From the NCBI GenBank assembly GCA_041548245.1, contig JBFESZ010000050.1, forward strand, positions 1 to 13,898: a DNA stretch of 13,898 nt, read 5' to 3'. The notes under the pieces were generated by a model. That model saw nothing but the letters and a program-made list of their open reading frames with translations, did not search any database and had not been told where the DNA came from. Below, in pieces: positions 1-13,361 of the stretch. Position 1 is the stretch's first letter, and each line of letters starts with the position of its first letter. The position numbers were made by a program, and so were the translations under genes. Source of the stretch: Sulfurimonadaceae bacterium (GTDB lineage Bacteria > Campylobacterota > Campylobacteria > Campylobacterales > Sulfurimonadaceae).

Positions 1-1464
1 CTCCTGTTTTTATTTTCCCTGCCTATCGTCGTACTTCTATTTCTTACCTTCCCGAGAATATCCTATAAAAAAGCCCGTTTCGGATTTGCAGCTGAAGAGA
101 TCAAGCGAACGGGCCATGATGGGACCATGCATCTTGATTCAAATGCCATGCTTGTACCCTCACCTAAACTGGTTATGGAAGTTACATTTGAAGAGCAAGT
201 TCCCTCTGATCATGCACTCTATTTTCGAGGTTCAGTCCTTTATACGGACATGGGTACACGCTGGGTACAGGAGGGAAGCATCTATGCCAAACGAACCATG
301 CCACTTGATGTGCAGAACGTCATAAACTACAAAATCAAACTCTATCCGCACAATCAACTGTGGCTCTATATGCTAGATATTCCCCTGATGCAACCTCTTA
401 AAAGTACGATTGATAAAGACTTTATCACACGAAGCCAAGAATTGGTCAAAGAGACTCTGTATTACGAAGGACGTTCGGCCTTAAACTACACACTTCCCCA
501 AGAAGACCAAAAAATTCTCTATAAAGCCCTTCAATTCGATAGAAATAGAGACCCTAAAACCTACAAAGCACTCAGAGATGCCATAGACATCAATGCCGAT
601 AGTCTAAGCAAAGCGAATGCGCTACTAAACTTCTTCTCCGAGTTAGAACTTTCTTATTCACTAAAACCTAAAAAAATAGACCTGGCACACCCTGTTGATT
701 CCTTTCTTTACGACTCCAAGATCGGTTACTGTGTCCATTTTGCTTCATCCTTTGCAACAAGTGCCCGTATGATAGGTATACCGGCAAGAGTCGTTACAGG
801 ATATAAAGCGGACCGTTCCAATGCGATTAACAATTATCTTCTTGTAAAAGAGGCGGATGCACATGCCTGGGTTGAGTTGTATATACAAGGTCAAGGATGG
901 CAAAGGTTTGAACCTACATCCACGGCGCGGCGTGTCCTTGCACCCGAGAATCCTCAACTATCCAATACCTATACGAATGCATCATTGCAACTTACTAGCA
1001 TACAAAAGCTCTTCAGACAAATCAATATCTACTATATGTATACCCGATACATCTTAAACAACTGGGTCCTGCAATACAGCCGTATGAAACAAAACGCATT
1101 GCTGCATAAACTACTCAACAACACACTGTTTCTATTCAAGTTCCTTGCCTCTCTTGCTGCCTTAATCCTGCTGAGTATCATCGCCTTTGTTCTGCTTCAG
1201 CGCAAAAGGTGCGATGACCCGGTATTGTGCGAGATGAAAAAACTTGTTAAAGTGTTGAAAAAAGAAGGCATTCGAAGAGAACGTGGCGAGACGATGTTCG
1301 ACTTTTTACAAAGAGCAGGCATTAACGGAGCTCATACAGATGAGATTTCAGAGATAAACACTCTGTATCATCTGTGCAGATACTCCCGGAGAGAAGACGA
1401 TAGCCTTCTCATACGGCTACGTCGTAGTATTCTTGCGCTGAAAAAGTCTCTTAAGAACGGCTAG
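1..1464 (+). CDS. Transglutaminase-like domain membrane protein, TgpA/DUF3488 type (5' end lies outside the window)
   Basis: Frame +1 is open from base 1 (LLFLFSLPIVVLLFLTFPR...TGHDGTM), so the ORF-track start at 127 is internal. Transglutaminase-like core motifs: GYCVHFA (Cys codon 730-732), GIPARVVTGY, AHAWVE (His codon 862-864), RFEPT (Glu codon 910-912). C-terminal hydrophobic helix FLASLAALILLSIIAFVLL. Stop at 1462-1464. Confidence 0.9.
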   Translation, partial: LLFLFSLPIVVLLFLTFPRISYKKARFGFAAEEIKRTGHDGTMHLDSNAMLVPSPKLVMEVTFEEQVPSDHALYFRGSVLYTDMGTRWVQEGSIYAKRTMPLDVQNVINYKIKLYPHNQLWLYMLDIPLMQPLKSTIDKDFITRSQELVKETLYYEGRSALNYTLPQEDQKILYKALQFDRNRDPKTYKALRDAIDINADSLSKANALLNFFSELELSYSLKPKKIDLAHPVDSFLYDSKIGYCVHFASSFATSARMIGIPARVVTGYKADRSNAINNYLLVKEADAHAWVELYIQGQGWQRFEPTSTARRVLAPENPQLSNTYTNASLQLTSIQKLFRQINIYYMYTRYILNNWVLQYSRMKQNALLHKLLNNTLFLFKFLASLAALILLSIIAFVLLQRKRCDDPVLCEMKKLVKVLKKEGIRRERGETMFDFLQRAGINGAHTDEISEINTLYHLCRYSRREDDSLLIRLRRSILALKKSLKNG

Positions 1465-2017
1465 TCACTTCAACGATATGAAAACCGAACTGTGTCTTGA
1501 CGATATGCAGTGTGTTTAGCTCTGCATTAAAACAGACCTCATCAAATTCCGGAACCATCTGTCCTTGTGTAAACTGACCCAAATCACCACCGCTGCTTTT
1601 TGAAGGACAAGCCGAGTTCTCCATCGCGACCTGAGCAAAATCGGCTCCCGCTTCGATCTGGGATCTTAACTCCAGACATTTCTCTTCACTGTCAACTAGA
1701 ATATGACGTGCACTTGCTGTTTGAACGACCGGTTCTTCTACTTCTTCGCGGCTTGTCACCTCAACGATATGGTAACCAAACTGCGTTTTTACGATATGCA
1801 GGACGTTTATTTCATCATTAAAACAGACCTTGTCAAATTCCGGAACCATCTGTCCTTGTGTAAACTGACCCAAATCACCACCGCTGCTTTTTGAAGGACA
1901 AGCCGAGTTCTCCATCGCGACCTGAGCAAAATCGGCTCCCGCTTCGATCTGTGATCTTAACTCCAGACATTTGTCTTCATTATCTACTAATATGTGGCGT
2001 GCACTTGCAATTATCAT
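1451..2017 (-). CDS. ppiC: Peptidyl-prolyl cis-trans isomerase, parvulin family, with two tandem PpiC domains (about 188 aa, no signal peptide)
   Basis: Each domain has ASARHILV, FAQVA..NSACPS, GGDLG.F, MVPEF and TQFG(Y/F)HIV. ATG at 2017 is preceded by AGGAGAG (2021-2027, minus strand), so it is preferred over the ORF-track start at 2053. Confidence 0.93.
   Translation of the reverse strand: MIIASARHILVDNEDKCLELRSQIEAGADFAQVAMENSACPSKSSGGDLGQFTQGQMVPEFDKVCFNDEINVLHIVKTQFGYHIVEVTSREEVEEPVVQTASARHILVDSEEKCLELRSQIEAGADFAQVAMENSACPSKSSGGDLGQFTQGQMVPEFDEVCFNAELNTLHIVKTQFGFHIVEVTSRS
1458..2008. repeat. Intragenic direct repeat with 291-bp period (copies at about 1458-1717 and 1749-2008)
   Basis: Manual alignment: 1542-1660 is identical to 1833-1951 (119 bp), and 1542-1681 vs 1833-1972 has one mismatch. 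The flanks are about 80% identical. Confidence 0.97.
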
Positions 2018-2070
2018 AATCTCTCCTGAATCGTATTTTATGAAATCGTACACTAAACCTCTTTACAAAT

Positions 2071-2108: not shown

Positions 2109-2633
2109 ATGAGCCTTATTTCAAGTATCAAACAACCCATCAAAAAGTTCACACAGAGTAAGATTCTTCCCTTCACGTTTAAAGTATCTGAACAACCCAT
2201 GCTCTTTAAAGAGCTTATGCATGCCAATATGATCTATAACGACGGCATGAATCTTGAGTACAACATGAAAGGATTCAGGGTTCGTCTGGGACGTATCTAT
2301 TTTGTTTTCTTTCTCCTATGGTTATCGCTTTTGACCCCACCATCATTGATCTTTCATACACTGCTTGCCAAGATAGACTGCCATGCTTTGATACTCTCAT
2401 CCATAGTCTTTACCGTACTCTTCTTTTCGACCTTCGCTCTGTTTAAGACATGGCTGATAGAATTGATCTCCAAACAGATCATCACCCAAGCCTGGAAAAA
2501 CCATTTTCCGCACTTTGATTATGAAAAGAACTCCAAGAAGGTATCAAAGTTCTACGCTCAAGCCATCGAAAGCGGGGTTACCAATAAAGACCTGCAACTG
2601 CACATCATCACAAAGATGGTCAGCGAAGAATAA
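2109..2633 (+). CDS. Hypothetical membrane protein, 174 aa, two predicted central transmembrane helices
   Basis: The ORF fills the gap between neighbours and has its own promoter. Hydrophobic segments IYFVFFLLWLSLLTPPSLIF and ALILSSIVFTVLFFSTFALF. No family confidently recognised. Confidence 0.8.
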   Translation: MSLISSIKQPIKKFTQSKILPFTFKVSEQPMLFKELMHANMIYNDGMNLEYNMKGFRVRLGRIYFVFFLLWLSLLTPPSLIFHTLLAKIDCHALILSSIVFTVLFFSTFALFKTWLIELISKQIITQAWKNHFPHFDYEKNSKKVSKFYAQAIESGVTNKDLQLHIITKMVSEE

Positions 2634-2692: not shown

Positions 2693-4873
2693 TCATACTT
2701 TAGGATGCTTCTTGTCGTTCACAAGTCTATTGATGAAGTTTCCAACAGATTTAAAGACCTTCTTATTTCCCTTGCCTGCAATCATGACATGTCTGGAAAA
2801 ATCGAACATTTCAAGAGCTTTATCCCCTGAACTGATACTCTGCAGTATTTTATCTGCACTTTCAGGCTTGACGACAGGGTCTTTGTCTGCTTGAAGTATT
2901 AAAGTCGGTGTCGTGATTATTGGCAGGATAGACCGGCACTCTTCCATCAATTGGCGCAGCTGCTCAAGGGATTTGATATAGTTTCTCTCATAATTAAACT
3001 CCGGAAACTCGGCTTCAGTGTCAATATATTCCATACCTGCATGAAATATCGATAAAAAATCATTCATCTTGCTAAGCGATGGTACAAAGTATTTGACTCG
3101 TATATCTTGAAGCTCAAGTGCAGCATTAATGACGACAAGTCCGTCTACCTTATTCGACTTTCTTGCAGTGGCCAGCATCGCCAACAAGCCACCTGTTGAA
3201 AAACCAATAAGACAGAGTCTCTTACTCACCTGACGCATAGCGGCAAAACCTCGGTTAAAACTGTCATACCACTCTTCCCAGGTTCTATCTCGTAGGTCCT
3301 CACTCACTGTCCCATGGCCTTCAAGTCTTACGGCATACACGTTTATACCTCGTTCATGCAAGTAGTTTGCCAACTCTTTTACTTCAGAAGGAGATGACCT
3401 GTAACCATGAGATATGACTACACCTGTAGTAAAGACCGGATTATACAGGACAAAAGGCCTACCTGTCTCTTTGGGTTTAGACAGATGTACGGAATAAAAC
3501 CGATTATAGTTTTTTACATAGTGTTTGTAATCTCTGTCATAGATAACTTTGAAGACCTCTTCCTTGACCCTGGTTGAACTTTCACATAAATTATCTTTGA
3601 TACTGCATAGATTATCATGCACACTTTTAGACACTTCGGGAAACAGTGCGATCTCATTCAAGATCACACGAAGCGTATTTTTAACCCGGATGGAATGAAA
3701 GGTATGCTCATCTGCAAACACGTCCCTGTTAATAAGATAAAAATCCTCTTCGACTTTCGACAATACTTTTTGCTCTAACGCCAAAGTAAGACTACTGTCG
3801 TACCAAGGGTCACACTCATCCGTAAGCAATTTAAACAACTCTTCCGTAATACTGTGATGAAGATTGAACTTATTAAGCTGTCCTACATCTCTGGCGGCTA
3901 AAAAAATCGCCCGTTTAAGCTCATTGGAGTCTATATGGTCTTCACCGTAATGCTCCAAAGCCAGGGCAAAGATATGATCAAAATTGATCAGAACATTTTT
4001 ATACACTGCTGCCATAAACTGTGTTGTCAAATCATGACGACAGGTGTTGATTATATCTTCACCTTCGAAAGGCTCACACTCTTCCTTTCTTGTCTCTTTT
4101 GCCTCATACAGGTACTTATAAATATCGATGGGCTTATCAAAAAAGATGTGAATTTCGGAGTTAAGCAATATATTTCCCTCAATTTCAAGTTCTTCTTTAA
4201 TACGCTCATCAATCTTGTCGACAAACCTTTCACCAATACTCATAAGAGGATTCATTCCCGGACGGATAGGCACATAGGTGATATTGATTGGAACCACCAC
4301 CGTATTTTTATAGGCGACACGCTCATCCGGGTTTATAAAATATGTTTCTCGCATCTGACGGACCTTTATGACATCACCCGCCTGTTGCGCTTCTTTGTAC
4401 TCCTGTTTAAGCAGTTCGGACTTCATCGCCAATACGGCTGAGCCTGTATGCATCTTCTCTGTTCCATCCAAAAAGTCTAGTATAAACTCTTTGTTACGAA
4501 TGATCTTTTTATTTTTGACCATCGCACCTTCAGGGTAGATCATCCAATTCTTACGACCTGTCATCAAATCACCCAGTATAATTTCGTCCCGGTGTTTATG
4601 CTGCGTAGAGAGTGTTCCTAATTTGTTTAAAAAACTTCCAAAATATCCGACAAAGATCGAATGATCAGCAAGAGAACGCACTGCCATTTGTGAATGCGAA
4701 GAGATAACATAGGGCATCACAAAAGTCTCAAAACGCGTAAAATGATTAGCGACAAAAAGTGTAGGAGAATCATGTAAAAGGTTTTCTTCACCGTGTACAT
4801 GGATATTCGTCTCAAGAATGGATTCAACCAGACTCATTAAATACGTAGTTGAACTGTAAAATATATTCTCCAT
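2693..4873 (-). CDS. Fusion protein: N-terminal PlsC-like glycerolipid acyltransferase domain plus C-terminal alpha/beta-hydrolase (carboxylesterase/monoacylglycerol-lipase-like), 726 aa
   Basis: N-terminal blocks FVANHFTRFE (H44, E49), IYPEG (about aa 112-116) and VVPINITY. C-terminal SHGY (H489), RLEGHG, GFSTGG nucleophile elbow (S559), DPVV (D665) and RHV (H695). RBS AAGGGA lies in the 19-nt gap after fadE. Confidence 0.87.
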   Translation of the reverse strand: MENIFYSSTTYLMSLVESILETNIHVHGEENLLHDSPTLFVANHFTRFETFVMPYVISSHSQMAVRSLADHSIFVGYFGSFLNKLGTLSTQHKHRDEIILGDLMTGRKNWMIYPEGAMVKNKKIIRNKEFILDFLDGTEKMHTGSAVLAMKSELLKQEYKEAQQAGDVIKVRQMRETYFINPDERVAYKNTVVVPINITYVPIRPGMNPLMSIGERFVDKIDERIKEELEIEGNILLNSEIHIFFDKPIDIYKYLYEAKETRKEECEPFEGEDIINTCRHDLTTQFMAAVYKNVLINFDHIFALALEHYGEDHIDSNELKRAIFLAARDVGQLNKFNLHHSITEELFKLLTDECDPWYDSSLTLALEQKVLSKVEEDFYLINRDVFADEHTFHSIRVKNTLRVILNEIALFPEVSKSVHDNLCSIKDNLCESSTRVKEEVFKVIYDRDYKHYVKNYNRFYSVHLSKPKETGRPFVLYNPVFTTGVVISHGYRSSPSEVKELANYLHERGINVYAVRLEGHGTVSEDLRDRTWEEWYDSFNRGFAAMRQVSKRLCLIGFSTGGLLAMLATARKSNKVDGLVVINAALELQDIRVKYFVPSLSKMNDFLSIFHAGMEYIDTEAEFPEFNYERNYIKSLEQLRQLMEECRSILPIITTPTLILQADKDPVVKPESADKILQSISSGDKALEMFDFSRHVMIAGKGNKKVFKSVGNFINRLVNDKKHPKV

Positions 4874-4892: not shown

Positions 4893-7289
4893 CTAGTTTC
4901 TTTCTGCATAATCTTTCACGGAGAACTCATCAACCATTATAGTCTCTTCTCTTATCCGCCTGGCTTCTTTCATCAGTGCATGCTCTTCCTCATTGATAAG
5001 ACCTGAGTCAAGTGCATTCTTATAAAGATCGCCTTCTTTACTGAGTTTTCTTGCTTTAAGCTCTTTTTTTACCTTAGTTGCGATGATGTCCGCCTTCCTT
5101 GATAATTGAAAGGCATGTTCAAGTCTGCCTAGCGCCGAGTTATCGTCTTTGGGAATATATATCCCCTCTGTAAGTTTTTCCCTATCTGCATTATCGAAGA
5201 GTATTTTGTGTGCCAACTCTTTTGAATAAAGATCACTTGGTGCTTTGGAAAATGCATTAAGGCGCACATAAAAAGCCACTGGATAAGCGAACAATAACCC
5301 GACTATGGATCGGTCAATGTTATTGCTAATCTCTTCAAAGGCATTTTGTATCTCATACAGAGCATAATCTCCTATCCATTTGACATACACTTTATCTTCT
5401 GCTCTTTCGCCTTCATCTTCATAACGTTTCAATGTAGCGCTTAAAAGATACATCCAAGACAAAATGTCACCAAAACGTGCTGTGACCTTCTCTTTTTGTT
5501 TGAGATTGCCACCGTAATACCCCATGACAAAATCTGTAAGGAAAGCGAAAGTAGCAGAGCTCCAGACTAATTTTCGCTCATACTTCGCAATCAGGGATGA
5601 ACGTGATGAAAAATGCAAATGACCACGGCTAAAACTCAGCAAAATCATACGGACCATATTGCGTAACGTAAAACCGATATGTTTAAAGAAGTTCTCATCA
5701 AAATCTTTCACATTCCCCTTTTCAAGAGCTTCTATCTCCTTATAGGCATAAGGATGGCAACGAATAACGCCCTGTCCGAATTGGATAAGCGTACGTGTCA
5801 TGATATTCGCACCCTCGACCGTAATTGCCACTGGCGCACTGAAGTAGGCATGTCCCAATAGGTTCTTTGGTCCAAGTGAGATTGCAGCCCCGCCCAAGAT
5901 ATCCATGGATTTATTGATGATCTCTCTGAATTTCTCTGTGGAGTGATACTTCATGACTGCATTGATTACAGCCGGTTTTTTCCCCTCGTCAATGGCACCA
6001 ATAGTAAACTTTCGTGAAGCATCCATCATATAGGTAAATGCTGCGATCTTTGCCAGTTCAGTCTCAATGCCTTCAAACTTTCCGATAGATATTCCAAACT
6101 GTTCACGCACTTCTGCATAGGCTCCTGCAACACGGGCACAAAGTTTTGCTCCGCCTGTGCTTGTCGATGGCAGAGAAATACCTCGTCCGACAGCCAAGGA
6201 CTCCATCAACATCATCCAACCTTTGCCAATACCTTTCTCACCGCCGATAATATCATCAATACCTATCTCGACGTCTTTACCACTGATCGGCGAGTTGATA
6301 AATGGTACGCTTAACGGATCATGGCGACGCCCTTGAACTACACCTTTACTCTTAGCATCGACCAAGGCACAACAGATTCCAAGGTCTACACCCCTTCCCA
6401 GAACCTCTTCAGGGTCTTTAAGAATAAAAGCCAGACCTATCACCGTAGCGATTGATCCCAGTGTGATATAACGTTTGTCAAACTGAAGACGAATTTTGAC
6501 ATTTCCAGACTCATCTTTAAAAACCTCTCCGTAAGAGCGTATAGATGTCGCATCTGATCCGGCATGTGGTTCAGTCAATGCAAAACAGGGAATATCCGTT
6601 CCATCGGCCAAACGTGGAAGATAATGTTCTTTCTGCTTTGTCGTACCATAATGCATAAGCAGTTCTGCCGGTCCAAGAGAGTTTGGTACCATTGTCGTAA
6701 TAGCCAAGACCTGTGAACGTGATGCCATTTTTTGTATGACTGCACTATGCCCGAGTGCTGAAAATCCCAAACCACCATACGATTTTGGAATAATCATCCC
6801 GAAGAACTTATTCTCTTTAAGGTATCGCCACACCTCTTCAGAAAGATCGCGCTCCTTAAAGACAGCCCAGTCATCCGTCATTTCACAAACGGTATCGACC
6901 TCATTTTCCAAGAACTCTTTTTCCTCTTGAGAGAGTGAAGGATAGTTCTCTTTGAATATACTGTCAAAGTCTGGTTTTCCACTGAAAAACTCACCGTCAA
7001 CCCATATTGTTCCGGCACGTAATGCCGTCTTTTCTGTCTCTGATATTCGAGGCATCAGGTGTAACCTGTTAACCAGACTTACCAGATGGCGACTAATGAG
7101 CTCCTGACGGATACTTGGCGTCAACAGTATGATATTGACAGGTATATATATCATCCAAAAAAGCATCCCCGGTTCACACCCGAAAAAGATAGTTGCCGCT
7201 AAAACTGCAGCCCAATAGACTGCCTTTGCTCCACGATACCATAAGGTTATTAAAACCAGTAATAGAGCGATTGTTATATATTCCATCAT
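4893..7289 (-). CDS. fadE: Acyl-CoA dehydrogenase, long FadE type with N-terminal membrane anchor, 798 aa
   Basis: MPRISETEKTALRAGTIW, VPNSLGPAELL, CFALTEPHAGSDA, KRYITL, GRGISLP, REQFG, catalytic ITVEGANIMTR and C-terminal IMVDEF. Hydrophobic N-terminus; RBS GGGAG. Confidence 0.95.
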   Translation of the reverse strand: MMEYITIALLLVLITLWYRGAKAVYWAAVLAATIFFGCEPGMLFWMIYIPVNIILLTPSIRQELISRHLVSLVNRLHLMPRISETEKTALRAGTIWVDGEFFSGKPDFDSIFKENYPSLSQEEKEFLENEVDTVCEMTDDWAVFKERDLSEEVWRYLKENKFFGMIIPKSYGGLGFSALGHSAVIQKMASRSQVLAITTMVPNSLGPAELLMHYGTTKQKEHYLPRLADGTDIPCFALTEPHAGSDATSIRSYGEVFKDESGNVKIRLQFDKRYITLGSIATVIGLAFILKDPEEVLGRGVDLGICCALVDAKSKGVVQGRRHDPLSVPFINSPISGKDVEIGIDDIIGGEKGIGKGWMMLMESLAVGRGISLPSTSTGGAKLCARVAGAYAEVREQFGISIGKFEGIETELAKIAAFTYMMDASRKFTIGAIDEGKKPAVINAVMKYHSTEKFREIINKSMDILGGAAISLGPKNLLGHAYFSAPVAITVEGANIMTRTLIQFGQGVIRCHPYAYKEIEALEKGNVKDFDENFFKHIGFTLRNMVRMILLSFSRGHLHFSSRSSLIAKYERKLVWSSATFAFLTDFVMGYYGGNLKQKEKVTARFGDILSWMYLLSATLKRYEDEGERAEDKVYVKWIGDYALYEIQNAFEEISNNIDRSIVGLLFAYPVAFYVRLNAFSKAPSDLYSKELAHKILFDNADREKLTEGIYIPKDDNSALGRLEHAFQLSRKADIIATKVKKELKARKLSKEGDLYKNALDSGLINEEEHALMKEARRIREETIMVDEFSVKDYAERN

Positions 7290-7300
7290 ATCTCCCTTTC

Positions 7301-9403
7301 TTAATAAAATGTCTTGTTGTTTTTTGCCATATCTCGCAAGAGTTTCGCCGGTTCAAACCTCATTCCATGGTTTTTGGACAAAGACTCGAGCGTCATTACA
7401 ACATTTTGCGCGCCCAGTGAATCGGCATAACGCAACAGACCTCCCCTGAACGGTGGGAAGCCTGTCCCCATTACCATTGCCATGTCCAGATATTGCGCAT
7501 TTTCGACAATCCCCTCTTCCAGGCACATCGCAGCCTCATTGATCATGATCAGAAGTGCTCTGTCGATTATCTCCTGCTCGTCAAACCTACGTTTTGAGAA
7601 GACAAGCTTCACAACTTCTTCATTAACTTCACGTTTTTTACTGCCGTGAATATAGAACCCCTTTCCTGATTTTTTCCCAAGCAACTGCATCTGTTGATAC
7701 ACTCTATCAAGAATAGATGAAACTTTCATTCTCTCTCCATAAGCATCTTCAAGTACCTTGGCAACTTTATAACCGACATCAAGTCCGACTTCATCAGCCA
7801 AAACAAAAGGACCCATCGGCATACCAAAATCTGATATCAAGGCATCAATCTTTTCAAAATCGGCACCCTCTTCAAACATTCTTACCGCCTCATTGATATA
7901 AGGAAGCAAAATACGGTTTACTAAAAAGCCCGCACAGTCTCCTACAACGACAGGTGTTTTTCCAGCCTCCTTGGCAAGGGCAACCACCGTCGCTATGGTC
8001 CTGTCGGAGGTCATCTTACCTGGTATAATCTCAACAAGAGGCATTCGAGGCACAGGATTGAAAAAATGCATCCCTATAAATCGTTCAGGATGCTGCATCT
8101 TCTCACTAAGCATTGTAATGGACAAAGAAGACGTATTGGTCGCAATGATGGCCTTCTCGTCCATAATCTCTTCAAGCTGACCATAGAGTTCCTGTTTGGC
8201 CTTTGTATCCTCCACAATAGCTTCAAGCGCGAGGTCACAATTATTAAACCCGCTAAAGTCAGTTGTATAGGTAATATGTCCCATCCTCATGTTGACTTCA
8301 GCCGGAGTCAAACGATGGCGCTTGACAATCCCGTCATAGACTTTTTGGATCGATTTCAAGGCCTCTGTCGCCTGCTCATACCGACGAAGTTTCATCCGAA
8401 CGAGTTTTCCTATTTTAGAAAACTGAAACACTATTCCTGATCCCATCACGCCGGCACCGACAACGTTCATCAACCGCACCTGTAATGGATTGATTCTGCG
8501 TTTGACTCCACGTTCCTTCTTCAAGGCTTCAGAAGTATAAAATAGGGCTATAAGGTTTTTGCTAATGTCTGTGATGGCAAGCTTTGAAAAGGCTCTGGCC
8601 TCATATTCCAGCCCCTCTTCGACTTCTTTGTTCTGTGTCCTTTCCATCAGGTCCAGTACTGCTAGAGGCGCAGGATACTTGTTCTTTGTCTTTGCAGCAA
8701 CACTCTTACGGGCATAAGAGAAGACCAGTTTTGGAAGATAACGATCCATCAAAGAAGCTTTTTTCCGCTTTTTCACTATTTCATGTGGGTTATTCAAAAT
8801 AAGTTCAATAAAACTTTTTTGTTTGAACTCCAAATACCCCTGAGGAACACAAGCATCAACAACACCCAGTTTCTCAGCTTTTTTTCCATTTAATATCTTG
8901 CCGCCAAGAATCAACTCCAATGCTTTGGAGAGACCTGTAAGGTACTTTAATCGTTGTGTTCCTCCAAATCCAGGCAGAACACCCAAGTTGACTTCAGGCA
9001 AGCCTATCTTTGTTTTAGGACTTTCCGTACATAAACGGTAATCACAACACAGAGCCAATTCCAGGCCACCGCCCAAACACGCTCCGTCGATAACAGCCAG
9101 TGTGGGATAAGGAAGCGCTGAGATCTCGCTCAATATTTTTTGACCTTCACGGACTTTTTCATATGCCTCCTCTTCATCTCTTAAGTCTTCTATCTCAGAG
9201 ATGTCAGCACCCGCTATGAATATTCCGTCTTTCGCAGAGGTGATCTGAAGCAGCCTAATATCCTCAGCCTTTTTTATCTCTTGAAGTTTACTATCTAAAG
9301 TCCTTAATACATCCGAAGAAAGAATGTTGATAGCGGACTCTTCCAAATCCAGGCAGAGGGTTGCAATGCCATTATTGTCTACAGAAAAATCAAATGCTTT
9401 CAT
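7301..9403 (-). CDS. fadJ: Multifunctional fatty-acid oxidation complex alpha subunit (enoyl-CoA hydratase / 3-hydroxyacyl-CoA dehydrogenase), FadJ/FadB type, 700 aa
   Basis: Crotonase motifs FIAGADI, CLGGGLELAL and GLPEVNLGVLPGFGGTQRL. Dehydrogenase motifs GAGVMG, EAIVE, TNTSSL, GMHFFNP, GFLVNR and GMPMGP. The probable start is ATG 9403 (MKAF), overlapping the thiolase stop (TAATG) with GGAGG upstream, not 9451. fadJ versus fadB cannot be settled without a tree. Confidence 0.92.
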   Translation of the reverse strand: MKAFDFSVDNNGIATLCLDLEESAINILSSDVLRTLDSKLQEIKKAEDIRLLQITSAKDGIFIAGADISEIEDLRDEEEAYEKVREGQKILSEISALPYPTLAVIDGACLGGGLELALCCDYRLCTESPKTKIGLPEVNLGVLPGFGGTQRLKYLTGLSKALELILGGKILNGKKAEKLGVVDACVPQGYLEFKQKSFIELILNNPHEIVKKRKKASLMDRYLPKLVFSYARKSVAAKTKNKYPAPLAVLDLMERTQNKEVEEGLEYEARAFSKLAITDISKNLIALFYTSEALKKERGVKRRINPLQVRLMNVVGAGVMGSGIVFQFSKIGKLVRMKLRRYEQATEALKSIQKVYDGIVKRHRLTPAEVNMRMGHITYTTDFSGFNNCDLALEAIVEDTKAKQELYGQLEEIMDEKAIIATNTSSLSITMLSEKMQHPERFIGMHFFNPVPRMPLVEIIPGKMTSDRTIATVVALAKEAGKTPVVVGDCAGFLVNRILLPYINEAVRMFEEGADFEKIDALISDFGMPMGPFVLADEVGLDVGYKVAKVLEDAYGERMKVSSILDRVYQQMQLLGKKSGKGFYIHGSKKREVNEEVVKLVFSKRRFDEQEIIDRALLIMINEAAMCLEEGIVENAQYLDMAMVMGTGFPPFRGGLLRYADSLGAQNVVMTLESLSKNHGMRFEPAKLLRDMAKNNKTFY

Positions 9404-10692
9404 TATTCTACCTCCAAAATCAGTGATGCACCCTGTCCACCACCTATACATAAAGTAGCGAGACCTCTGTTCTTGCCTCTACGACGCAATTCTTTCAAAG
9501 TATGTATCACAAGACGTGTACCTGTCATACCGACAGGGTGTCCCAAGGCGACAGCACCACCATTGACATTGAAAGTACTCATATCTATGCTGCCCAATGC
9601 CTGACTTCGTCCAAAATGCTCTTTCGCATAGCTTTTAGAATCAAAGGCGACGACATTTGCCAAGGCTTGAACAGCGAAAGCCTCATTCATCTCTATTAGA
9701 TCAATATCCTTGAGACTCATTTTATACTTTCCGAACAGCTTGGCTGTCGCATATGAAGGTCCCATCCCCATACGTTTTGGTTCAAGACCGGCATAGGCGT
9801 AACGGCTCAAATACCCCAAAGGTTCGAGACCCATCGATTTAGCCTTGGATTCACTCATCAAAACAACAGCGGCTGCGGCATCTGAGACCTGCGATGAGTT
9901 ACCGGCCGTGACTGTTCCATTTTTTCTATCAAAGAATGGTCGCAGTTTTCCCAAGGCATCCATGCTCTGTCCAAAACGTATACCGTCATCATCTTCCATG
10001 ATTTTGCCTGCTTTGCTATCATAGACAAGCGGTGAGATCTCTTCTCTGAATATTCCGGCCTTTGTCGCTGCTTCAGCTTTTTTATGACTCTCCAGGGCGA
10101 ACCTGTCCTGCTCTTCTCTGCTTATTCCAAAATCCTGTGCCAAGACCTCAGCAGTTGAACCCATCATCAAACCGCTAACGGGATCTGTAAGCCCTTGCAT
10201 AAGGCCGATAATGGGTTTAATATATCGAAACCTAAAATGCGTAAGTGTATAAAGCTTTTCTGATATGCTCTTTGCTTTAAAGAGCGCTTCAAAGAGTTCT
10301 TTCATCTTGTCACTGTAAATCAAAGGGATATTGCTCATCGACTCCACGCCACCGGACATAAATATCTCACCCTGACCCGCTAATATCTTAGACGCAGCCG
10401 ATGTAATCGATTCCATACCTGATGCGCAGTTTCTGTGCACCGTGTAGGCTATGGTAGAATCCGGGAATCCTGCTTCCAAAGCAATCACACGTGCCACATT
10501 CGCTGCATGAGCAGGCTGCGAGACATTACCCATAATCACCTCATCGTACATCTCAAAGGGTATTCCCACTCTCAATGCCAGTTCCTGAACGATATGTGCA
10601 CCTAATCTCTCGGCATGGATATCTTTGAAGTTACCGCCTGCCTTTGCGATGGGAGTACGTATTCCATCTATTATTGCTATACGCTCTTTCAT
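9403..10692 (-). CDS. fadI: 3-ketoacyl-CoA thiolase (FadI/FadA type), 429 aa
   Basis: DGIRTP, RNCASG (nucleophile Cys), GGVESMS, VTAGNSSQVSD, NEAFA, GHPVGMTG and LCIGGGQG. The long loop after GGVESMS is FadI-like. The start overlaps the fadD stop (ATGA, 10689-10692). Confidence 0.93.
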   Translation of the reverse strand: MKERIAIIDGIRTPIAKAGGNFKDIHAERLGAHIVQELALRVGIPFEMYDEVIMGNVSQPAHAANVARVIALEAGFPDSTIAYTVHRNCASGMESITSAASKILAGQGEIFMSGGVESMSNIPLIYSDKMKELFEALFKAKSISEKLYTLTHFRFRYIKPIIGLMQGLTDPVSGLMMGSTAEVLAQDFGISREEQDRFALESHKKAEAATKAGIFREEISPLVYDSKAGKIMEDDDGIRFGQSMDALGKLRPFFDRKNGTVTAGNSSQVSDAAAAVVLMSESKAKSMGLEPLGYLSRYAYAGLEPKRMGMGPSYATAKLFGKYKMSLKDIDLIEMNEAFAVQALANVVAFDSKSYAKEHFGRSQALGSIDMSTFNVNGGAVALGHPVGMTGTRLVIHTLKELRRRGKNRGLATLCIGGGQGASLILEVE

Positions 10693-12425
10693 GATTCACT
10701 CCTGTAAAAGTTTTCTATCTCATGTTTGTATATCTCTTCGACCTTCTTGCGTGAGAGCTTCATCGACGGCGTCAAAATACCGCTTTCTATACTTACCTGG
10801 TCACTGACGATATAAAATTTCTGTATCTGTTCCCAATGATTCAATCTAAGGTTTAGTTTTTTGATGATGTTAAATACAATAGCCTGAATACGCTTGTGCT
10901 GTACCAACTCTTCGTATGTGAGTCCATCTAGTCGTTTACGTTCTGCAAAAGCTTGTAATAATGTCTCATCCATAAAAACCAAAGCTGATACAAAAGGTCT
11001 GCCATCAGCAATAATAATCGCATAATCTATCCATTTGTTCGCTGTTATCTCCTGCTCTATGGCGATTGCAGAAACATATTTTCCTGTTGATGTCTTAAAG
11101 AGCTCTTTTTTACGGCTGAGAATTGTAATGTATCCTTCATCATCAATTTCAGCCAGATCTCCTGTATGCAACCATCCTTCTTCATCAATCGTCTCTTTTG
11201 TCTTAAGAGGCTGCTGGTGATATCCAAGCATCATACTCTCCCCTCGCATCAGTAGTTCAGAATCTTCGGCCAGTTTGACTTCAACATGTGCATAAGCTTT
11301 TCCGCATGTTCCTACCTTATTCGCATCAGGTGTGTTCACGCATATGACAGGAGAAGTCTCGGTAAGGCCATAGCCTTGATAAAGAGGTACACCTATATTA
11401 TGAAAAAATCTGTATACCGCCATAGAGAGTGGTGCACCTCCGCTGATAAGATATTTCAGCTCCCCTCCGAGCGCATCTGTGAGTTTTGAATAGACCAGTT
11501 TTGCGAAGATCCTATCAAGGAAGTTCTCTTTATCCCTATTTGGGTCTTTATGGTTTGCCCTAGAAAAAGCCATCCAGGCCACCAACCATTTAAGACCTTT
11601 TGCTGCATGTGCGTTCTCATGCATCTTGATGTAAATTTTGTCCAATAGACGCGGTACCACCGTCATGACATTTGGCCTTATATCTTTTAACAGGTTGGCT
11701 ACATTTTTAACATCATCGGCAAAATAGATCGATGCACCCGTTGTAAGATAAAAACTCATAACCATACGTTCGAATATATGTGCCAAAGGAAGGAAGCTCA
11801 AGACTTTATAACTTTTTTCCATCGTAAAACATTCATGTGTGTCTTTGATTTGCGTGATGATGTTTAGGTGCGAAAGCTCAACACCTTTGGGAACACCTGT
11901 TGAGCCGCTAGTATAGATAATAGTTGCCAGATCATTAGGTGAGATATTTGGTCTTTCATAGGAGATATCCGCTGTTAAAAAATCATCCCACAATTCAATA
12001 TTGTTACCGCTGGCTTGAATATCTTTAAGCAGGACTAACTTCATGCTCTCCAGATAGGAAGCTATTTGATCGTATTTCTCCTGTGAAGCTATATAGGCGT
12101 ACTCAATTTGTGCATCTTTGAGTTCAAAGTTAAGGTTTTCTGAAGAGATATTGGCGAAGATGGGGACCGAGACAGCCCCCAAACATTGCAAGGCATAATC
12201 CACCATCAACCAGAAAGGTGAGGAGTCAGAGATAATGGCGACACTTGTGCCTTGAGATACACCCCGTTTTTGAAAAGCACTTGCCAAAGCATGAACCGAA
12301 CGGACAAACTCTGCAGAAGAGATACTTTTCCACTGAGCGTCTTCAAGATAGTTCAAATAGTTTTCATTGGCTATCTCGTTTTCAATATATTCAACAATTT
12401 CACAGAGGTTATTACATTCAAACAT
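10689..12425 (-). CDS. fadD: Long-chain fatty acid--CoA ligase (AMP-dependent synthetase), about 578 aa
   Basis: IIYTSGSTGVPKG P-loop, FLPLAHIFER, SGGAPL, QGYGLTETSP, WLHTGDL, RKKELFKTSTGKY and LTPSMK. ATG 12425, preceded by AAGGG, is preferred over TTG 12431. Confidence 0.93.
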   Translation of the reverse strand: MFECNNLCEIVEYIENEIANENYLNYLEDAQWKSISSAEFVRSVHALASAFQKRGVSQGTSVAIISDSSPFWLMVDYALQCLGAVSVPIFANISSENLNFELKDAQIEYAYIASQEKYDQIASYLESMKLVLLKDIQASGNNIELWDDFLTADISYERPNISPNDLATIIYTSGSTGVPKGVELSHLNIITQIKDTHECFTMEKSYKVLSFLPLAHIFERMVMSFYLTTGASIYFADDVKNVANLLKDIRPNVMTVVPRLLDKIYIKMHENAHAAKGLKWLVAWMAFSRANHKDPNRDKENFLDRIFAKLVYSKLTDALGGELKYLISGGAPLSMAVYRFFHNIGVPLYQGYGLTETSPVICVNTPDANKVGTCGKAYAHVEVKLAEDSELLMRGESMMLGYHQQPLKTKETIDEEGWLHTGDLAEIDDEGYITILSRKKELFKTSTGKYVSAIAIEQEITANKWIDYAIIIADGRPFVSALVFMDETLLQAFAERKRLDGLTYEELVQHKRIQAIVFNIIKKLNLRLNHWEQIQKFYIVSDQVSIESGILTPSMKLSRKKVEEIYKHEIENFYRSES

Positions 12426-12550
12426 ATCCAACCCTTAAGGTAAATATCTTTATCGCATTACATATTCTATCTCATTTATTTTACGATTCAAACATTTTTT
12501 AACTTTTTTGAATATTGAAATTTTATTTGTACATTTTATTTAAAGTTTGT

Positions 12551-12617: not shown

Positions 12618-13361
12618 GTGATACAAAAACCGAATTTTTATGCTGTTATCATCGGCACTGAAATATTAGACCGCCGCAGAGAGGACAAGCACTTTAATTA
12701 TCTGAGTAAAGCGCTTAAATCCAAAGGGTTTAGTCTTTTTGCCTCCTTTCTTATCAAAGATGACAGACAGCTCATCACAAAGACCTATGAGATGATCAAT
12801 GACGATCCTGTATCGATGATGTTCAGCTTTGGGGGTATAGGTTCTACACCTGATGACCTGACACGCCAGCTTAGTGCTGATGTCTTCTCCGATGGAAAGC
12901 TTTATCGACACCCTAAATTTGAGCAGGACATCATCAACCGTATGGGTGAAAAGGCCTATCCCCATCGCATCCAGATGTCTGATCTACCTAAGAATGCACA
13001 ACTTCTATTTAATCCTGTCAATAACATGTCGGGTTTTCATCTTCACGAACGTTTTTTCTTTATGCCAGGTTTTCCCGAGATGTCTCATCCTATGGTCGAT
13101 GAGATTCTTTCAAAATATATTCCCGAACCTGAAAAAATTTTCAATAAGAGCTTATTAGCCGAATGCGGTGAAGGAAACATACAGCATCTAATGGTGGATC
13201 TTCCTGCTCAGATTGAGCTCTCCTCTTTGCCTATGATGAATAATGGCAATCCAAAAGTCGAACTGAGATTGAGCTCTGCTGACGAGAAGTTGCTAAAGCT
13301 ACACTTTCAAATATTTACTGATTTTTTAAATCACGAAGCAATAGGATACGAACTCTTATGA
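12618..13361 (+). CDS. CinA-like / molybdopterin-binding-fold protein (COG1058 type; no C-terminal PncC domain), 247 aa
   Basis: VIIGTEIL...EDKH, GGIGSTPDDLTR and FMPGFP. GTG start with GGGAG RBS. Confidence 0.88.
   Translation: MIQKPNFYAVIIGTEILDRRREDKHFNYLSKALKSKGFSLFASFLIKDDRQLITKTYEMINDDPVSMMFSFGGIGSTPDDLTRQLSADVFSDGKLYRHPKFEQDIINRMGEKAYPHRIQMSDLPKNAQLLFNPVNNMSGFHLHERFFFMPGFPEMSHPMVDEILSKYIPEPEKIFNKSLLAECGEGNIQHLMVDLPAQIELSSLPMMNNGNPKVELRLSSADEKLLKLHFQIFTDFLNHEAIGYELL

What the first reader, a model, noticed from the sequence alone, without database searches (positions are those of the whole stretch)
8381..8458. 3-hydroxyacyl-CoA dehydrogenase domain lacks the NAD-selecting Asp and has Leu-Arg-Arg: possible NADP(H) switch
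Seen: the Rossmann segment reads GAGVMGSGIVFQFSKIGKLVRMK-L-R-R (L339, R340, R341 from the 9403 start). Established: in FadB/FadJ this segment ends in an acidic residue (E. coli FadB, from memory: [26 protein letters not shown]) that binds the adenosine ribose of NAD and excludes the 2'-phosphate. Loss of that acid plus adjacent Arg is the usual signature of NADP preference. The alignment is gap-free and the catalytic HFFNP and TNTSS motifs are intact, so this does not look like decay. Inference: the complex may yield NADPH from fatty acids or run reductively (chain elongation).
Basis: partly seen in the sequence, partly recalled or inferred. Interest (0 to 1): 0.8.

Follow-up and report, generated by a model that had tools for sequence, protein, structure and literature searches.

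The report
NADP-type cofactor site in beta-oxidation enzyme
A fatty-acid-degrading enzyme of a marine sulfur bacterium and about a hundred relatives has replaced the residue that selects NAD with a Leu-Arg pair typical of NADP users, so these bacteria may make NADPH rather than NADH when they burn fat; this is a prediction that still needs an enzyme assay.

Summary
Window 8381-8458 (minus strand) encodes GAGVMGSGIVFQFSKIGKLVRMK-L339-R340-R341 of a 700-aa FadJ-like alpha subunit. It lies in a fadD-fadI-fadJ-fadE operon of a Sulfurimonadaceae-like genome that has only this one 3-hydroxyacyl-CoA dehydrogenase gene. L339 aligns without gaps to the Asp of E. coli and P. fragi FadB (MKDIN). In a confident model it is the first residue after strand beta2.

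This is not decay. All 15 same-genus genomes with the gene keep L-R through synonymous codon changes, and the catalytic residues are invariant.

In 267 aligned relatives, 115 of 119 proteins without the acid have Arg at +1, against 2 of 148 with the acid. A clade of 120 proteins is 112/120 non-acid+Arg. Four separate returns to Asp/Glu in that clade all lost the Arg.

Two published mutant studies calibrate the pattern. D31A/I32R at these same positions of a clostridial Hbd switches it to NADPH. Human 17beta-HSD1 uses a natural Leu37-Arg38 for the NADP 2'-phosphate.

Best reading (about 0.6): the dehydrogenase domain prefers or at least accepts NADP(H). The gene context argues for oxidation that yields NADPH. 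No such trifunctional enzyme turned up in the literature I searched. It is a new variant of a known kind and has not been assayed.

The parts
8381..8458 (-). Rossmann beta1-alphaA-beta2 segment of the dehydrogenase domain, residues 316-341: GAGVMGSGIVFQFSKIGKLVRMKLRR
   Evidence: In the AlphaFold2 model beta1 is 311-315, alphaA 319-330 and beta2 334-338.
8381..8389 (-). Codons of L339 (CTT), R340 (CGT) and R341 (CGG). L339 takes the place of the NAD-selecting beta2-tip Asp; R340 is the predicted partner of the 2'-phosphate.
   Evidence: Gap-free alignment to E. coli FadB, P. fragi FadB and Hbd residues 31/32. Synonymous codon variation with the amino acids kept in 15 same-genus genomes.
7301..9403 (-). 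FadJ-like alpha subunit of the trifunctional beta-oxidation enzyme (700 aa): enoyl-CoA hydratase domain plus 3-hydroxyacyl-CoA dehydrogenase domains
   Evidence: Pfam ECH_1, 3HCDH_N and 3HCDH. Best PDB match by sequence is E. coli FadJ at 3.6e-155. Foldseek TM 0.93 to 6ysv. NCBIfam FadJ 722.5 bits, below the 869 cut-off.
7934..8464 (-). 3HCDH_N (NAD(P)-binding and catalytic) domain, the only one over the cut-off in the genome
9403..10692 (-). FadI-like 3-ketoacyl-CoA thiolase (beta subunit). Its stop overlaps the fadJ start by one base.
   Evidence: Pfam Thiolase_N/C. Best PDB match is E. coli FadI 8bnu at 8.8e-97. Junction read.
10689..12431 (-). Long-chain fatty acid-CoA ligase (FadD-like), first gene of the operon
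   Evidence: Pfam AMP-binding and AMP-binding_C_3. The NCBIfam fatty-acid-CoA ligase models are all below their cut-offs.
4893..7289 (-). FadE-like acyl-CoA dehydrogenase (798 aa) with a hydrophobic N-terminus, immediately downstream of fadJ
   Evidence: Pfam ACDH_C and Acyl-CoA_dh_N/M/1. NCBIfam PRK09463, 980.7 bits, over the 600 cut-off. The gene order is conserved in relatives.
2693..4873 (-). Last gene of the cluster: a fusion of a PlsC-type acyltransferase domain (residues 24-128) and an alpha/beta-hydrolase domain (485-697)
   Evidence: Pfam Acyltransferase and Hydrolase_4. No NCBIfam model is over its cut-off.

Best explanation
The gene encodes an intact FadJ-type alpha subunit of a FadI/FadJ beta-oxidation complex. 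Its 3-hydroxyacyl-CoA dehydrogenase domain carries an NADP-type adenosine-ribose pocket.

The carboxylate at the tip of strand beta2 normally binds the 2'/3'-hydroxyls of NAD and repels a 2'-phosphate. Here it is replaced by Leu339. [quoted passage not shown] The enzyme is therefore predicted to prefer, or at least efficiently accept, NADP+/NADPH.

The gene sits between a FadD-type ligase and FadI thiolase on one side and a FadE-type flavin acyl-CoA dehydrogenase on the other. The pathway therefore most likely runs oxidatively. Each turn would then yield NADPH in place of NADH, along with acetyl-CoA.

The organism fixes carbon by the reverse TCA cycle, and I found neither PntAB nor glucose-6-phosphate dehydrogenase in its genome. 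In such an organism both products would feed biosynthesis directly (inferred).

Shown: the sequence state, its position, its conservation, its coupling with Arg, and the gene context. Inferred: the cofactor preference, the direction and the physiological benefit.
For: Position. L339 aligns gap-free with the Asp of E. coli FadB, of P. fragi FadB 1wdk and of FadJ 6ysv. It corresponds to residue 31 of Hbd chains 4kug/4r1n, by a gap-free match of residues 2-59 to 2-59. In the AlphaFold2 model (pLDDT 94.6) strand beta2 is 334-338, L339 is the first residue after it, and a helix starts at 343. In human HAD (1F17) the beta2-tip Asp makes the canonical bidentate contact with the adenosine ribose, and its replacement is described as a prerequisite for NADP use (PMC4777477, passages).

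Conservation. All 15 same-genus genomes with the gene have L-R-(R/G/H). Six different Leu codons and three Arg codons are used.

Coupling. In 267 aligned proteins of at least 600 aa, 115 of 119 without the acid have Arg at +1, against 2 of 148 with the acid. On a FastTree built without the trait columns, a clade of 120 (support 100) is 112 non-acid+Arg, 7 acid without Arg in four separate places, and 1 V-L-H. Three further non-acid+Arg proteins lie singly among acid-type proteins outside the clade. In independent pairs on supported branches, Arg goes the same way in about 4 of 6 and never the other way.

Experimental calibrators. In T. thermosaccharolyticum Hbd (same Pfam family), D31A/I32R/P36I lowers Km(NADPH) from 1.1 to 0.03 mM and raises Vmax from 15 to 765 (PMC6652007, Table 5 passage). 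Human 17beta-HSD1 has a natural L37-R38, with R38 on the 2'-phosphate, and L37D/R38I abolishes NADP+ use (PMC11454497, whole abstract). C. kluyveri Hbd1 is a natural NADPH-specific member of the enzyme class (PMC6134114 and PMC9393629, passages).

Context. This is the only 3HCDH_N gene over the cut-off in the genome. The thiolase-fadJ-ACAD order is kept in relatives. ATP-citrate lyase is present. PntB, G6PD and isocitrate lyase were not found in the 96%-complete genome.
Against: No assay, no ligand-bound structure and no docking was done; the specificity rests on sequence rules.

In the engineered Hbd variants NADH activity fell only about 2-fold. Wild-type 17beta-HSD1 prefers NADP+ only 7-fold by Km. 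Dual specificity is therefore as plausible as strict NADP preference.

Leu and Val are bulkier than the Ala/Gly/Ser/Thr usually found at this position in NADP enzymes (recalled).

Thermodynamics (recalled): 3-hydroxyacyl-CoA oxidation is already uphill with NAD+, and would be more so against a reduced NADP pool. That argues for the reductive direction or for a need for strong pull by the thiolase.

The genome has a complete complex I with NuoE/F/G, so NADH could be used. The sign test on independent pairs is not significant (median p 0.125). PntB is rare throughout the order (4 of 41 genomes at E <= 0.001, 3 of them over the family cut-off), so its absence here is not specific to this genome. 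I could not read the sequence of C. kluyveri Hbd1, so it is a precedent for NADPH specificity only, not for this motif.
Confidence: 0.6

Rival explanations
1. The enzyme still works mainly with NAD+/NADH, or has no useful preference. On this view the loss of the acid and the Arg residues reflect clade-specific drift or a non-canonical way of holding the NAD ribose, and beta-oxidation here yields NADH as in the textbook pathway.
For: Removing the acid and adding Arg lowered NADH activity of Hbd only about 2-fold. 17beta-HSD1 with L-R still uses NAD+ with a Km of 44 uM. A full NADH-oxidising complex I is encoded. Four non-acid proteins lack the Arg (V-L-H, L-L-A, G-N-R, A-I-D), so the acid can be lost without an Arg at +1.
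Against: The tight and repeated coupling of acid loss with Arg at +1 (115/119 against 2/148) is hard to explain by drift, as is the loss of Arg at each of four returns to an acid. L and R are kept through synonymous codon turnover. In both calibrator enzymes the same two positions dominate NADP(H) affinity.
Confidence: 0.22
2. The NADP-type site marks a reductive role. The FadI/FadJ pair would run in reverse: thiolase condensation, NADPH-dependent 3-ketoacyl-CoA reduction, then dehydration. The product would be (S)-3-hydroxyacyl- or enoyl-CoA for lipid, storage-polymer or chain-elongation products, as with NADPH-linked Hbd1 of C. kluyveri.
For: The known natural NADPH-specific relative, C. kluyveri Hbd1, works reductively. 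NADPH pools favour reduction (recalled thermodynamics). The operon ends with an acyltransferase/hydrolase fusion that could handle acyl products.
Against: The gene is flanked by a fatty-acid-CoA ligase and a FadE-type flavin acyl-CoA dehydrogenase, in an order conserved in relatives. No ETF and no Ter/FabV-type enoyl reductase was found to close a reductive cycle, although the control for rang in no genome, so that negative is weak. The acid-type relative in G026 sits in the same fadJ-ACAD context.
Confidence: 0.13
3. The L-R-R reading is an assembly or sequencing error, or the gene is decaying.
For: The window comes from a metagenome-style assembly of 165 contigs with 5.7% contamination.
Against: The same residues are found in 15 other genomes of the genus and in about 110 database proteins. 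The frame is intact, the catalytic residues are invariant, and the model has pLDDT 94.6.
Confidence: 0.01

Closest known systems
E. coli FadJ/FadI, the anaerobic trifunctional beta-oxidation enzyme (PDB 6ysv, 8bnu)
   Same: Same domain order and fold: 39-40% identity, TM 0.93, phmmer 3.6e-155. The partner thiolase is closest to FadI. The two genes are adjacent and translationally coupled.
   Different: FadJ has VRIKD-I-N at the beta2 tip; this protein has VRMKL-R-R. It scores below the NCBIfam FadJ equivalog cut-off, 722.5 against 869. Here ligase, thiolase, alpha subunit and FadE-like dehydrogenase form one operon.
FadB of E. coli K-12 and of Pseudomonas fragi (PDB 1wdk)
   Same: Gap-free alignment across the Rossmann segment. 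The same catalytic motifs.
   Different: 35% identity. FadB reads MKD-I-N where this protein reads MKL-R-R.
Engineered Thermoanaerobacterium thermosaccharolyticum Hbd D31A/I32R/P36I (PMC6652007)
   Same: Same Pfam family. The mutated positions 31 and 32 correspond to L339 and R340 by gap-free alignment to Hbd chains of the same numbering. The change is of the same kind: acid to a non-acid residue, and +1 to Arg.
   Different: It is a monofunctional 282-aa-class enzyme, made in the laboratory, with Ala rather than Leu at the first position. I inferred the correspondence through C. butyricum Hbd (4kug), the template used in that paper, not from the Tt_Hbd sequence itself.
Clostridium kluyveri Hbd1, a natural NADPH-specific 3-hydroxybutyryl-CoA dehydrogenase
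   Same: A natural NADP(H)-specific enzyme of the same reaction class.
   Different: It is monofunctional, short-chain, works reductively in chain elongation and comes from a clostridium. I could not obtain its sequence with the tools, so its beta2-tip residues were not compared.
Human 17beta-hydroxysteroid dehydrogenase type 1, Leu37-Arg38 (PMC11454497)
   Same: The same Leu-Arg dipeptide in the cofactor-binding domain. Arg38 binds the 2'-phosphate. L37D/R38I, which is the D-I of FadB, abolishes NADP+ use.
   Different: It belongs to the short-chain dehydrogenase family and is not homologous beyond the Rossmann core. This is an analogy of mechanism only.

Membership tests
FadB/FadJ-type alpha subunit of the trifunctional fatty-acid oxidation complex | N-terminal crotonase (enoyl-CoA hydratase) domain followed by 3HCDH_N and 3HCDH dehydrogenase domains in one chain of about 700 aa | tested here: met
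   Pfam ECH_1 5.2e-34, 3HCDH_N 9.8e-58, 3HCDH 3.3e-37. Foldseek TM 0.93 to 6ysv over 718 columns.
FadB/FadJ-type alpha subunit of the trifunctional fatty-acid oxidation complex | Catalytic residues of both active sites present: the hydratase Glu pair, and the dehydrogenase His-Glu pair with Ser and Asn. The roles of these residues are recalled, not from a call. | tested here: met
   E115, E137, S425, H446, E458 and N496 are invariant in 55 aligned sequences. HFFNP and TNTSS read.
FadB/FadJ-type alpha subunit of the trifunctional fatty-acid oxidation complex | Adjacent gene for the thiolase beta subunit | tested here: met
   A FadI-like thiolase lies directly upstream, with a one-base stop/start overlap. 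The order is kept in relatives.
FadB/FadJ-type alpha subunit of the trifunctional fatty-acid oxidation complex | Score over NCBIfam's curated equivalog cut-off for FadJ or FadB | tested here: not met
   FadJ NF008363 722.5 bits against cut-off 869. FadB NF008727 626.9 against 870. It is a divergent relative, not an equivalog by that criterion.
FadB/FadJ-type alpha subunit of the trifunctional fatty-acid oxidation complex | Acidic residue at the tip of beta2 (the NAD+-linked dehydrogenase step) | tested here: not met
   Leu339 stands in place of Asp. 141 of 147 aligned proteins outside the clade have Asp/Glu there.
NADP(H)-dependent members of the 3-hydroxyacyl-CoA dehydrogenase (3HCDH) family | No carboxylate at the beta2 tip | tested here: met
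   L339.
NADP(H)-dependent members of the 3-hydroxyacyl-CoA dehydrogenase (3HCDH) family | Basic residue next to the beta2 tip able to bind the 2'-phosphate | tested here: met
   R340 and R341. Arg at +1 in 115 of 119 non-acid relatives. The I32R equivalent raises NADPH use in Hbd.
NADP(H)-dependent members of the 3-hydroxyacyl-CoA dehydrogenase (3HCDH) family | Measured preference for NADP(H) over NAD(H) | not testable with these tools
   Needs enzyme kinetics. No tool here docks or scores NAD against NADP.
Reverse beta-oxidation / chain-elongation module | An NAD(P)H- or ETF-linked enoyl-CoA reductase to close the reductive cycle | tested here: inconclusive
   ETF (PF01012) was not found in the genome. 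The Ter/FabV family PF12241 was not found, but its control rang in no genome. The neighbouring dehydrogenase is FadE-like.

The most novel reading that the evidence does not exclude
A whole clade of Sulfurimonadaceae-type bacteria runs an NADP+-linked beta-oxidation cycle. It would be the first natural trifunctional FadJ/FadI complex whose dehydrogenase step makes NADPH. Fatty acids would then supply acetyl-CoA and anabolic reductant together to reverse-TCA autotrophs in which I found neither transhydrogenase nor an oxidative pentose-phosphate pathway.

Within the clade the site has flipped back to the NAD type at least four times, each time dropping the Arg. That gives a natural series of matched NAD/NADP enzyme pairs.
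Probability: 0.45. Interest if true: 0.72.

Novelty: new variant of a known kind. Interest (0 to 1): 0.6.

Why it matters
Beta-oxidation is taught as strictly NAD+-linked at the 3-hydroxyacyl-CoA step. My full-text searches for NADP(H)-dependent 3-hydroxyacyl-CoA dehydrogenase and for cofactor specificity in this family found two kinds of case only. One is the monofunctional C. kluyveri Hbd1. The other is a trypanosome activity that is not encoded by the trifunctional-enzyme gene. These searches cover open-access papers and preprints only.

If the prediction holds, three things follow. Second, it would provide a natural long-chain, NADPH-linked hydratase/dehydrogenase for engineered reverse beta-oxidation, where NADPH coupling is sought. 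Third, it would offer natural NAD-type and NADP-type sister enzymes for studying how cofactor specificity evolves.

If the prediction fails, it shows that the 'no acid plus Arg' rule can mislead in this family.

Tried and rejected
1. A second, canonical dehydrogenase in the genome. PF02737 finds only this gene over the cut-off; the other hit scores 20.5 bits, below 22.

2. E343 as a substitute acid. Rejected: an E/D at that column is equally common in acid-type proteins, and in the model E343 starts a helix.

3. 'The organism cannot oxidise NADH', as in Campylobacter and Helicobacter (recalled). Rejected: a nuo cluster with NuoE, NuoF and NuoG domains is present.

4. PntB absence as a correlate of the NADP-type enzyme. 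PntB is absent from all 16 other same-genus genomes, but it is found in only 4 of 41 genomes of the order at E <= 0.001, 3 of them over the cut-off. The test is not informative.

5. [quoted passage not shown] A knock-out of the trifunctional-enzyme gene kept the activity, so it is not a precedent (PMC4262433, abstract and passages).

6. The M. tuberculosis FadB2 structure paper has no text on NADP or ribose contacts. The reverse beta-oxidation review cites only NADH for HAD-family enzymes and NADPH for the unrelated PhaB.

7. Papers on Sulfurimonas and fatty-acid degradation: nothing about this operon.

8. A 60-residue query against the PDB gave spurious top hits to TAL-effector repeats, each a sum of many sub-threshold repeat matches. 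I ignored them.

9. Names for the independent non-acid+Arg proteins. The cluster look-up gave almost no organism names.

10. Earlier notes of this scan: none for this genome or these words.

11. The sequence of C. kluyveri Hbd1 could not be obtained with the tools, so its beta2 tip was not compared.

12. No NAD-versus-NADP modelling was possible: complex prediction does not score ligands, so I did not use it.

Rows dropped. Three of the 270 database proteins were under 600 aa and were left out of the alignment: P0077 (L-R-H), P0105 (L-R-R) and P0265 (acid type), as read.
Full report
WHAT IS THERE

The window is contig C50 of a 2.16-Mb, 165-contig genome (96% complete, 5.7% contamination). Source names attached to homologues place it among Campylobacterales/Sulfurimonadaceae: Sulfurimonas, Sulfuricurvum, 'Campylobacterales bacterium'.

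On the minus strand lie five tightly packed genes:
- a fatty-acid-CoA ligase (10689-12431);
- a FadI-like thiolase (9403-10692);
- the FadJ-like alpha subunit (7301-9403);
- a FadE-like acyl-CoA dehydrogenase (4893-7289);
- a fusion of a PlsC-type acyltransferase with an alpha/beta-hydrolase (2693-4873).

The thiolase stop and the fadJ start share one base (TAATG), and a GGAGG lies nine bases upstream. The longer ORF that starts at 9451 is therefore not the gene. The full-length homologues are 694-709 aa, which fits the 9403 start.

THE OBSERVATION

- P. fragi FadB (1wdk) gives the same result.
- E. coli FadJ (6ysv), the closest solved relative (3.6e-155), needs a one-residue gap in the preceding helix. 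It also puts L339 under its Asp.
- An AlphaFold2 model built on a 55-sequence alignment (pLDDT 94.6, pTM 0.91) has beta1 at 311-315, alphaA at 319-330, beta2 at 334-338 and the next helix from 343. L339 is therefore the residue at the tip of beta2, the classical ribose-binding position.
- The model superposes on FadJ with TM 0.93.
- In human HAD (1F17) the beta2-tip Asp makes the canonical bidentate contact with the adenosine ribose. Its replacement is described as a prerequisite for NADP use (PMC4777477, passages read).

NOT DECAY AND NOT AN ERROR

- G316, G318, G321, S425, H446, E458 and N496, and the hydratase residues E115 and E137, are invariant in 55 aligned sequences.
- 15 of the 16 other genomes of the genus hold the gene. 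The one without it is 61% complete.
- All 15 read L-R-(R/G/H).
- The Leu codon varies among CTT, CTG, CTA, CTC, TTA and TTG, and the Arg340 codon among CGT, CGC and AGA. The amino acids, not the bases, are conserved.
- It is the only 3HCDH_N gene over the cut-off in the genome.

DISTRIBUTION AND COUPLING

I aligned 267 proteins of at least 600 aa. Of these, 118 came from the 120 listed close hits, and 149 from the 150 best representatives at 50% identity. Three shorter rows were dropped.

At column 339:
- 148 proteins have Asp/Glu, and only 2 of them have Arg at +1;
- 119 proteins have another residue, and 115 of them have Arg at +1.

Among the 149 distant representatives, 141 carry the acid, so the acid is the family norm.

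A FastTree was built with the trait columns removed. It shows a clade of 120 proteins (support 100, stem 0.28) that holds the window's protein:
- 112 members are non-acid+Arg (L-R-R 49, L-R-G 7, then V-R-R, V-R-G, A-R-S, G-R-S, T-R-G and others);
- 7 members carry Asp/Glu, in four separate places (E-I-S; E-L-H/D-L-N; D-Q-N; D-M-D), and none of these has the Arg;
- 1 member reads V-L-H.

Outside the clade, three lone proteins among acid-type neighbours are again non-acid+Arg (T-R-S, V-R-K, S-R-S).

The fewest changes on the tree are 10 for the acid state and 11 for the Arg. In the six independent pairs on supported branches the Arg goes the same way in about four and never the other way. With so few pairs the sign test is not significant (median p 0.125).

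The tree is a quick one and is unrooted. 'One gain and several reversions' is the simplest reading, not a demonstrated one.

IS E343 A STAND-IN?

No. An E/D at that column occurs in 96 of the 149 mostly acid-type representatives. It also occurs in 5 of the 7 acid-type members among the 118 close hits. In the model E343 opens the next helix.

WHAT THE PATTERN MEANS

Two experimental calibrators were found in print.

1. In Hbd of Thermoanaerobacterium thermosaccharolyticum, a member of the same Pfam family, D31A alone lowers Km(NADPH) from 1.1 to 0.03 mM. The D31A/I32R/P36I variant raises Vmax with NADPH from 15 to 765 µmol/min/mg, while NADH activity falls about two-fold (PMC6652007, passages including Table 5). 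Residues 31 and 32 of Hbd chains with that numbering (4kug, 4r1n) correspond to L339 and R340 by a gap-free match of residues 2-59. I inferred this through the template that the paper used, not from the Tt_Hbd sequence itself.

2. Human 17beta-HSD1, an unrelated Rossmann enzyme, has a natural Leu37-Arg38. Arg38 binds the 2'-phosphate, and L37D/R38I or L37D/R38D abolish NADP+ use. The wild type prefers NADP+ only 7-fold by Km (PMC11454497, whole abstract).

So Leu-Arg is a proven NADP motif, and D-I, the FadB state, is its proven NAD counterpart. C. kluyveri Hbd1 shows that natural NADPH-specific enzymes of this reaction exist (PMC6134114 and PMC9393629, passages). I could not read its sequence.

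DIRECTION AND PHYSIOLOGY (inferred)

The flanking ligase and the FadE-like flavoprotein argue for degradation, as does their conserved order. Thiolase-fadJ-ACAD is seen in the same-genus loci wherever the flanks reach, and in G022 and G024. In G026, the acid-type relative, the locus ends before any thiolase gene but the ACAD follows fadJ. G008 has the ACAD in the opposite orientation, and G032 has none within 1.5 kb.

No ETF and no Ter/FabV-type reductase was found to close a reductive cycle. The control for one search was silent, so that negative is weak.

The genome encodes ATP-citrate lyase, so it uses the reverse TCA cycle. Isocitrate lyase, PntB and glucose-6-phosphate dehydrogenase were not found in this 96%-complete genome. 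In such a cell a beta-oxidation that delivers acetyl-CoA plus NADPH would feed biosynthesis directly.

Three points weigh against this.
- A complete NADH-oxidising complex I is present.
- PntB is rare in the whole order: 4 of 41 genomes at E <= 0.001, 3 of them over the cut-off.
- From recalled thermodynamics, oxidising 3-hydroxyacyl-CoA against a reduced NADP pool is harder than with NAD+. This keeps the reductive reading alive.

COMPARISON WITH WHAT IS KNOWN

By architecture, fold, catalytic residues and partner gene this is a FadJ-type alpha subunit. It falls below NCBIfam's FadJ and FadB equivalog cut-offs, and it fails the family's normal NAD-selecting feature.

Full-text searches found no NADP-linked trifunctional enzyme. 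I searched for NADP(H)-dependent 3-hydroxyacyl-CoA dehydrogenase, for cofactor specificity in this family, and for Sulfurimonas with beta-oxidation. The trypanosome NADP-dependent activity is not due to its TFE-alpha gene (PMC4262433). These searches cover open-access papers and preprints only. I did not look at supplements.

VERDICT

I put about 0.6 on NADP(H) preference or efficient use in an oxidative pathway. I put about 0.2 on mainly NAD or no useful preference, about 0.13 on a reductive role, and about 0.01 on an artefact.

It is a new variant of a known kind. It is worth an enzyme assay, because the clade supplies its own natural NAD-type controls.

Noticed in passing
window 2693-4873 (-): The last gene of the fad cluster is a 726-aa fusion. 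It has a PlsC-type acyltransferase domain (residues 24-128), about 350 residues with no family match, and an alpha/beta-hydrolase (Hydrolase_4, residues 485-697). No NCBIfam model is over its cut-off. It could link lipid deacylation or reacylation to beta-oxidation.
   Followed up: partly
window 4893-7289 (-): The FadE-like acyl-CoA dehydrogenase has a hydrophobic N-terminus of about 60 residues. No ETF (PF01012) was found in the genome, so its electron acceptor is open, as it is for E. coli FadE (recalled).
   Followed up: partly
window 2109-2633 (+): A 174-aa ORF with no Pfam or NCBIfam match. It lies between the fad cluster and a double PpiC-type rotamase gene (1451-2053, minus strand).
   Followed up: no
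window 1-1464 (+) and 12618-13361 (+): The flanking genes are a TgpA-like transglutaminase (Transglut_core, TgpA_N, DUF4129; cut by the window start) and a 247-aa MoCF_biosynth-domain protein. Neither seems related to the fad operon.
   Followed up: no
window 8300-8380 (-), residues 342-368: The helix after the cofactor loop (YEQATEALKSIQKVYDGIVKRHRLTP) gave summed phmmer hits to TAL-effector repeats in the PDB (E 1.4e-05). Each repeat match on its own is far below threshold, so this is a repeat-summing artefact and not homology.
   Followed up: yes
proteins P0063, P0064, P0081, P0095, P0098, P0102, P0103 (database proteins, not in the window): Seven clade members carry Asp/Glu at the beta2 tip and lack the Arg. 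They sit at four places in the tree next to non-acid+Arg sisters. They are apparent reversions and make ready natural controls.
   Followed up: partly
L020 (G032:C196) and P0186: A more distant Campylobacterales relative (42% identity) reads L-L-A at the site: no acid and no Arg. Its genome does have PntB. Its cofactor use cannot be guessed from the rule.
   Followed up: no
L019/L021 (G010:C58) and L014/L022 (G007:C10): In two same-genus genomes the fadJ match is split by one in-frame stop (TAA in G010, TGA in G007) into two pieces. This may be a broken gene or an assembly error; I did not examine it.
   Followed up: no
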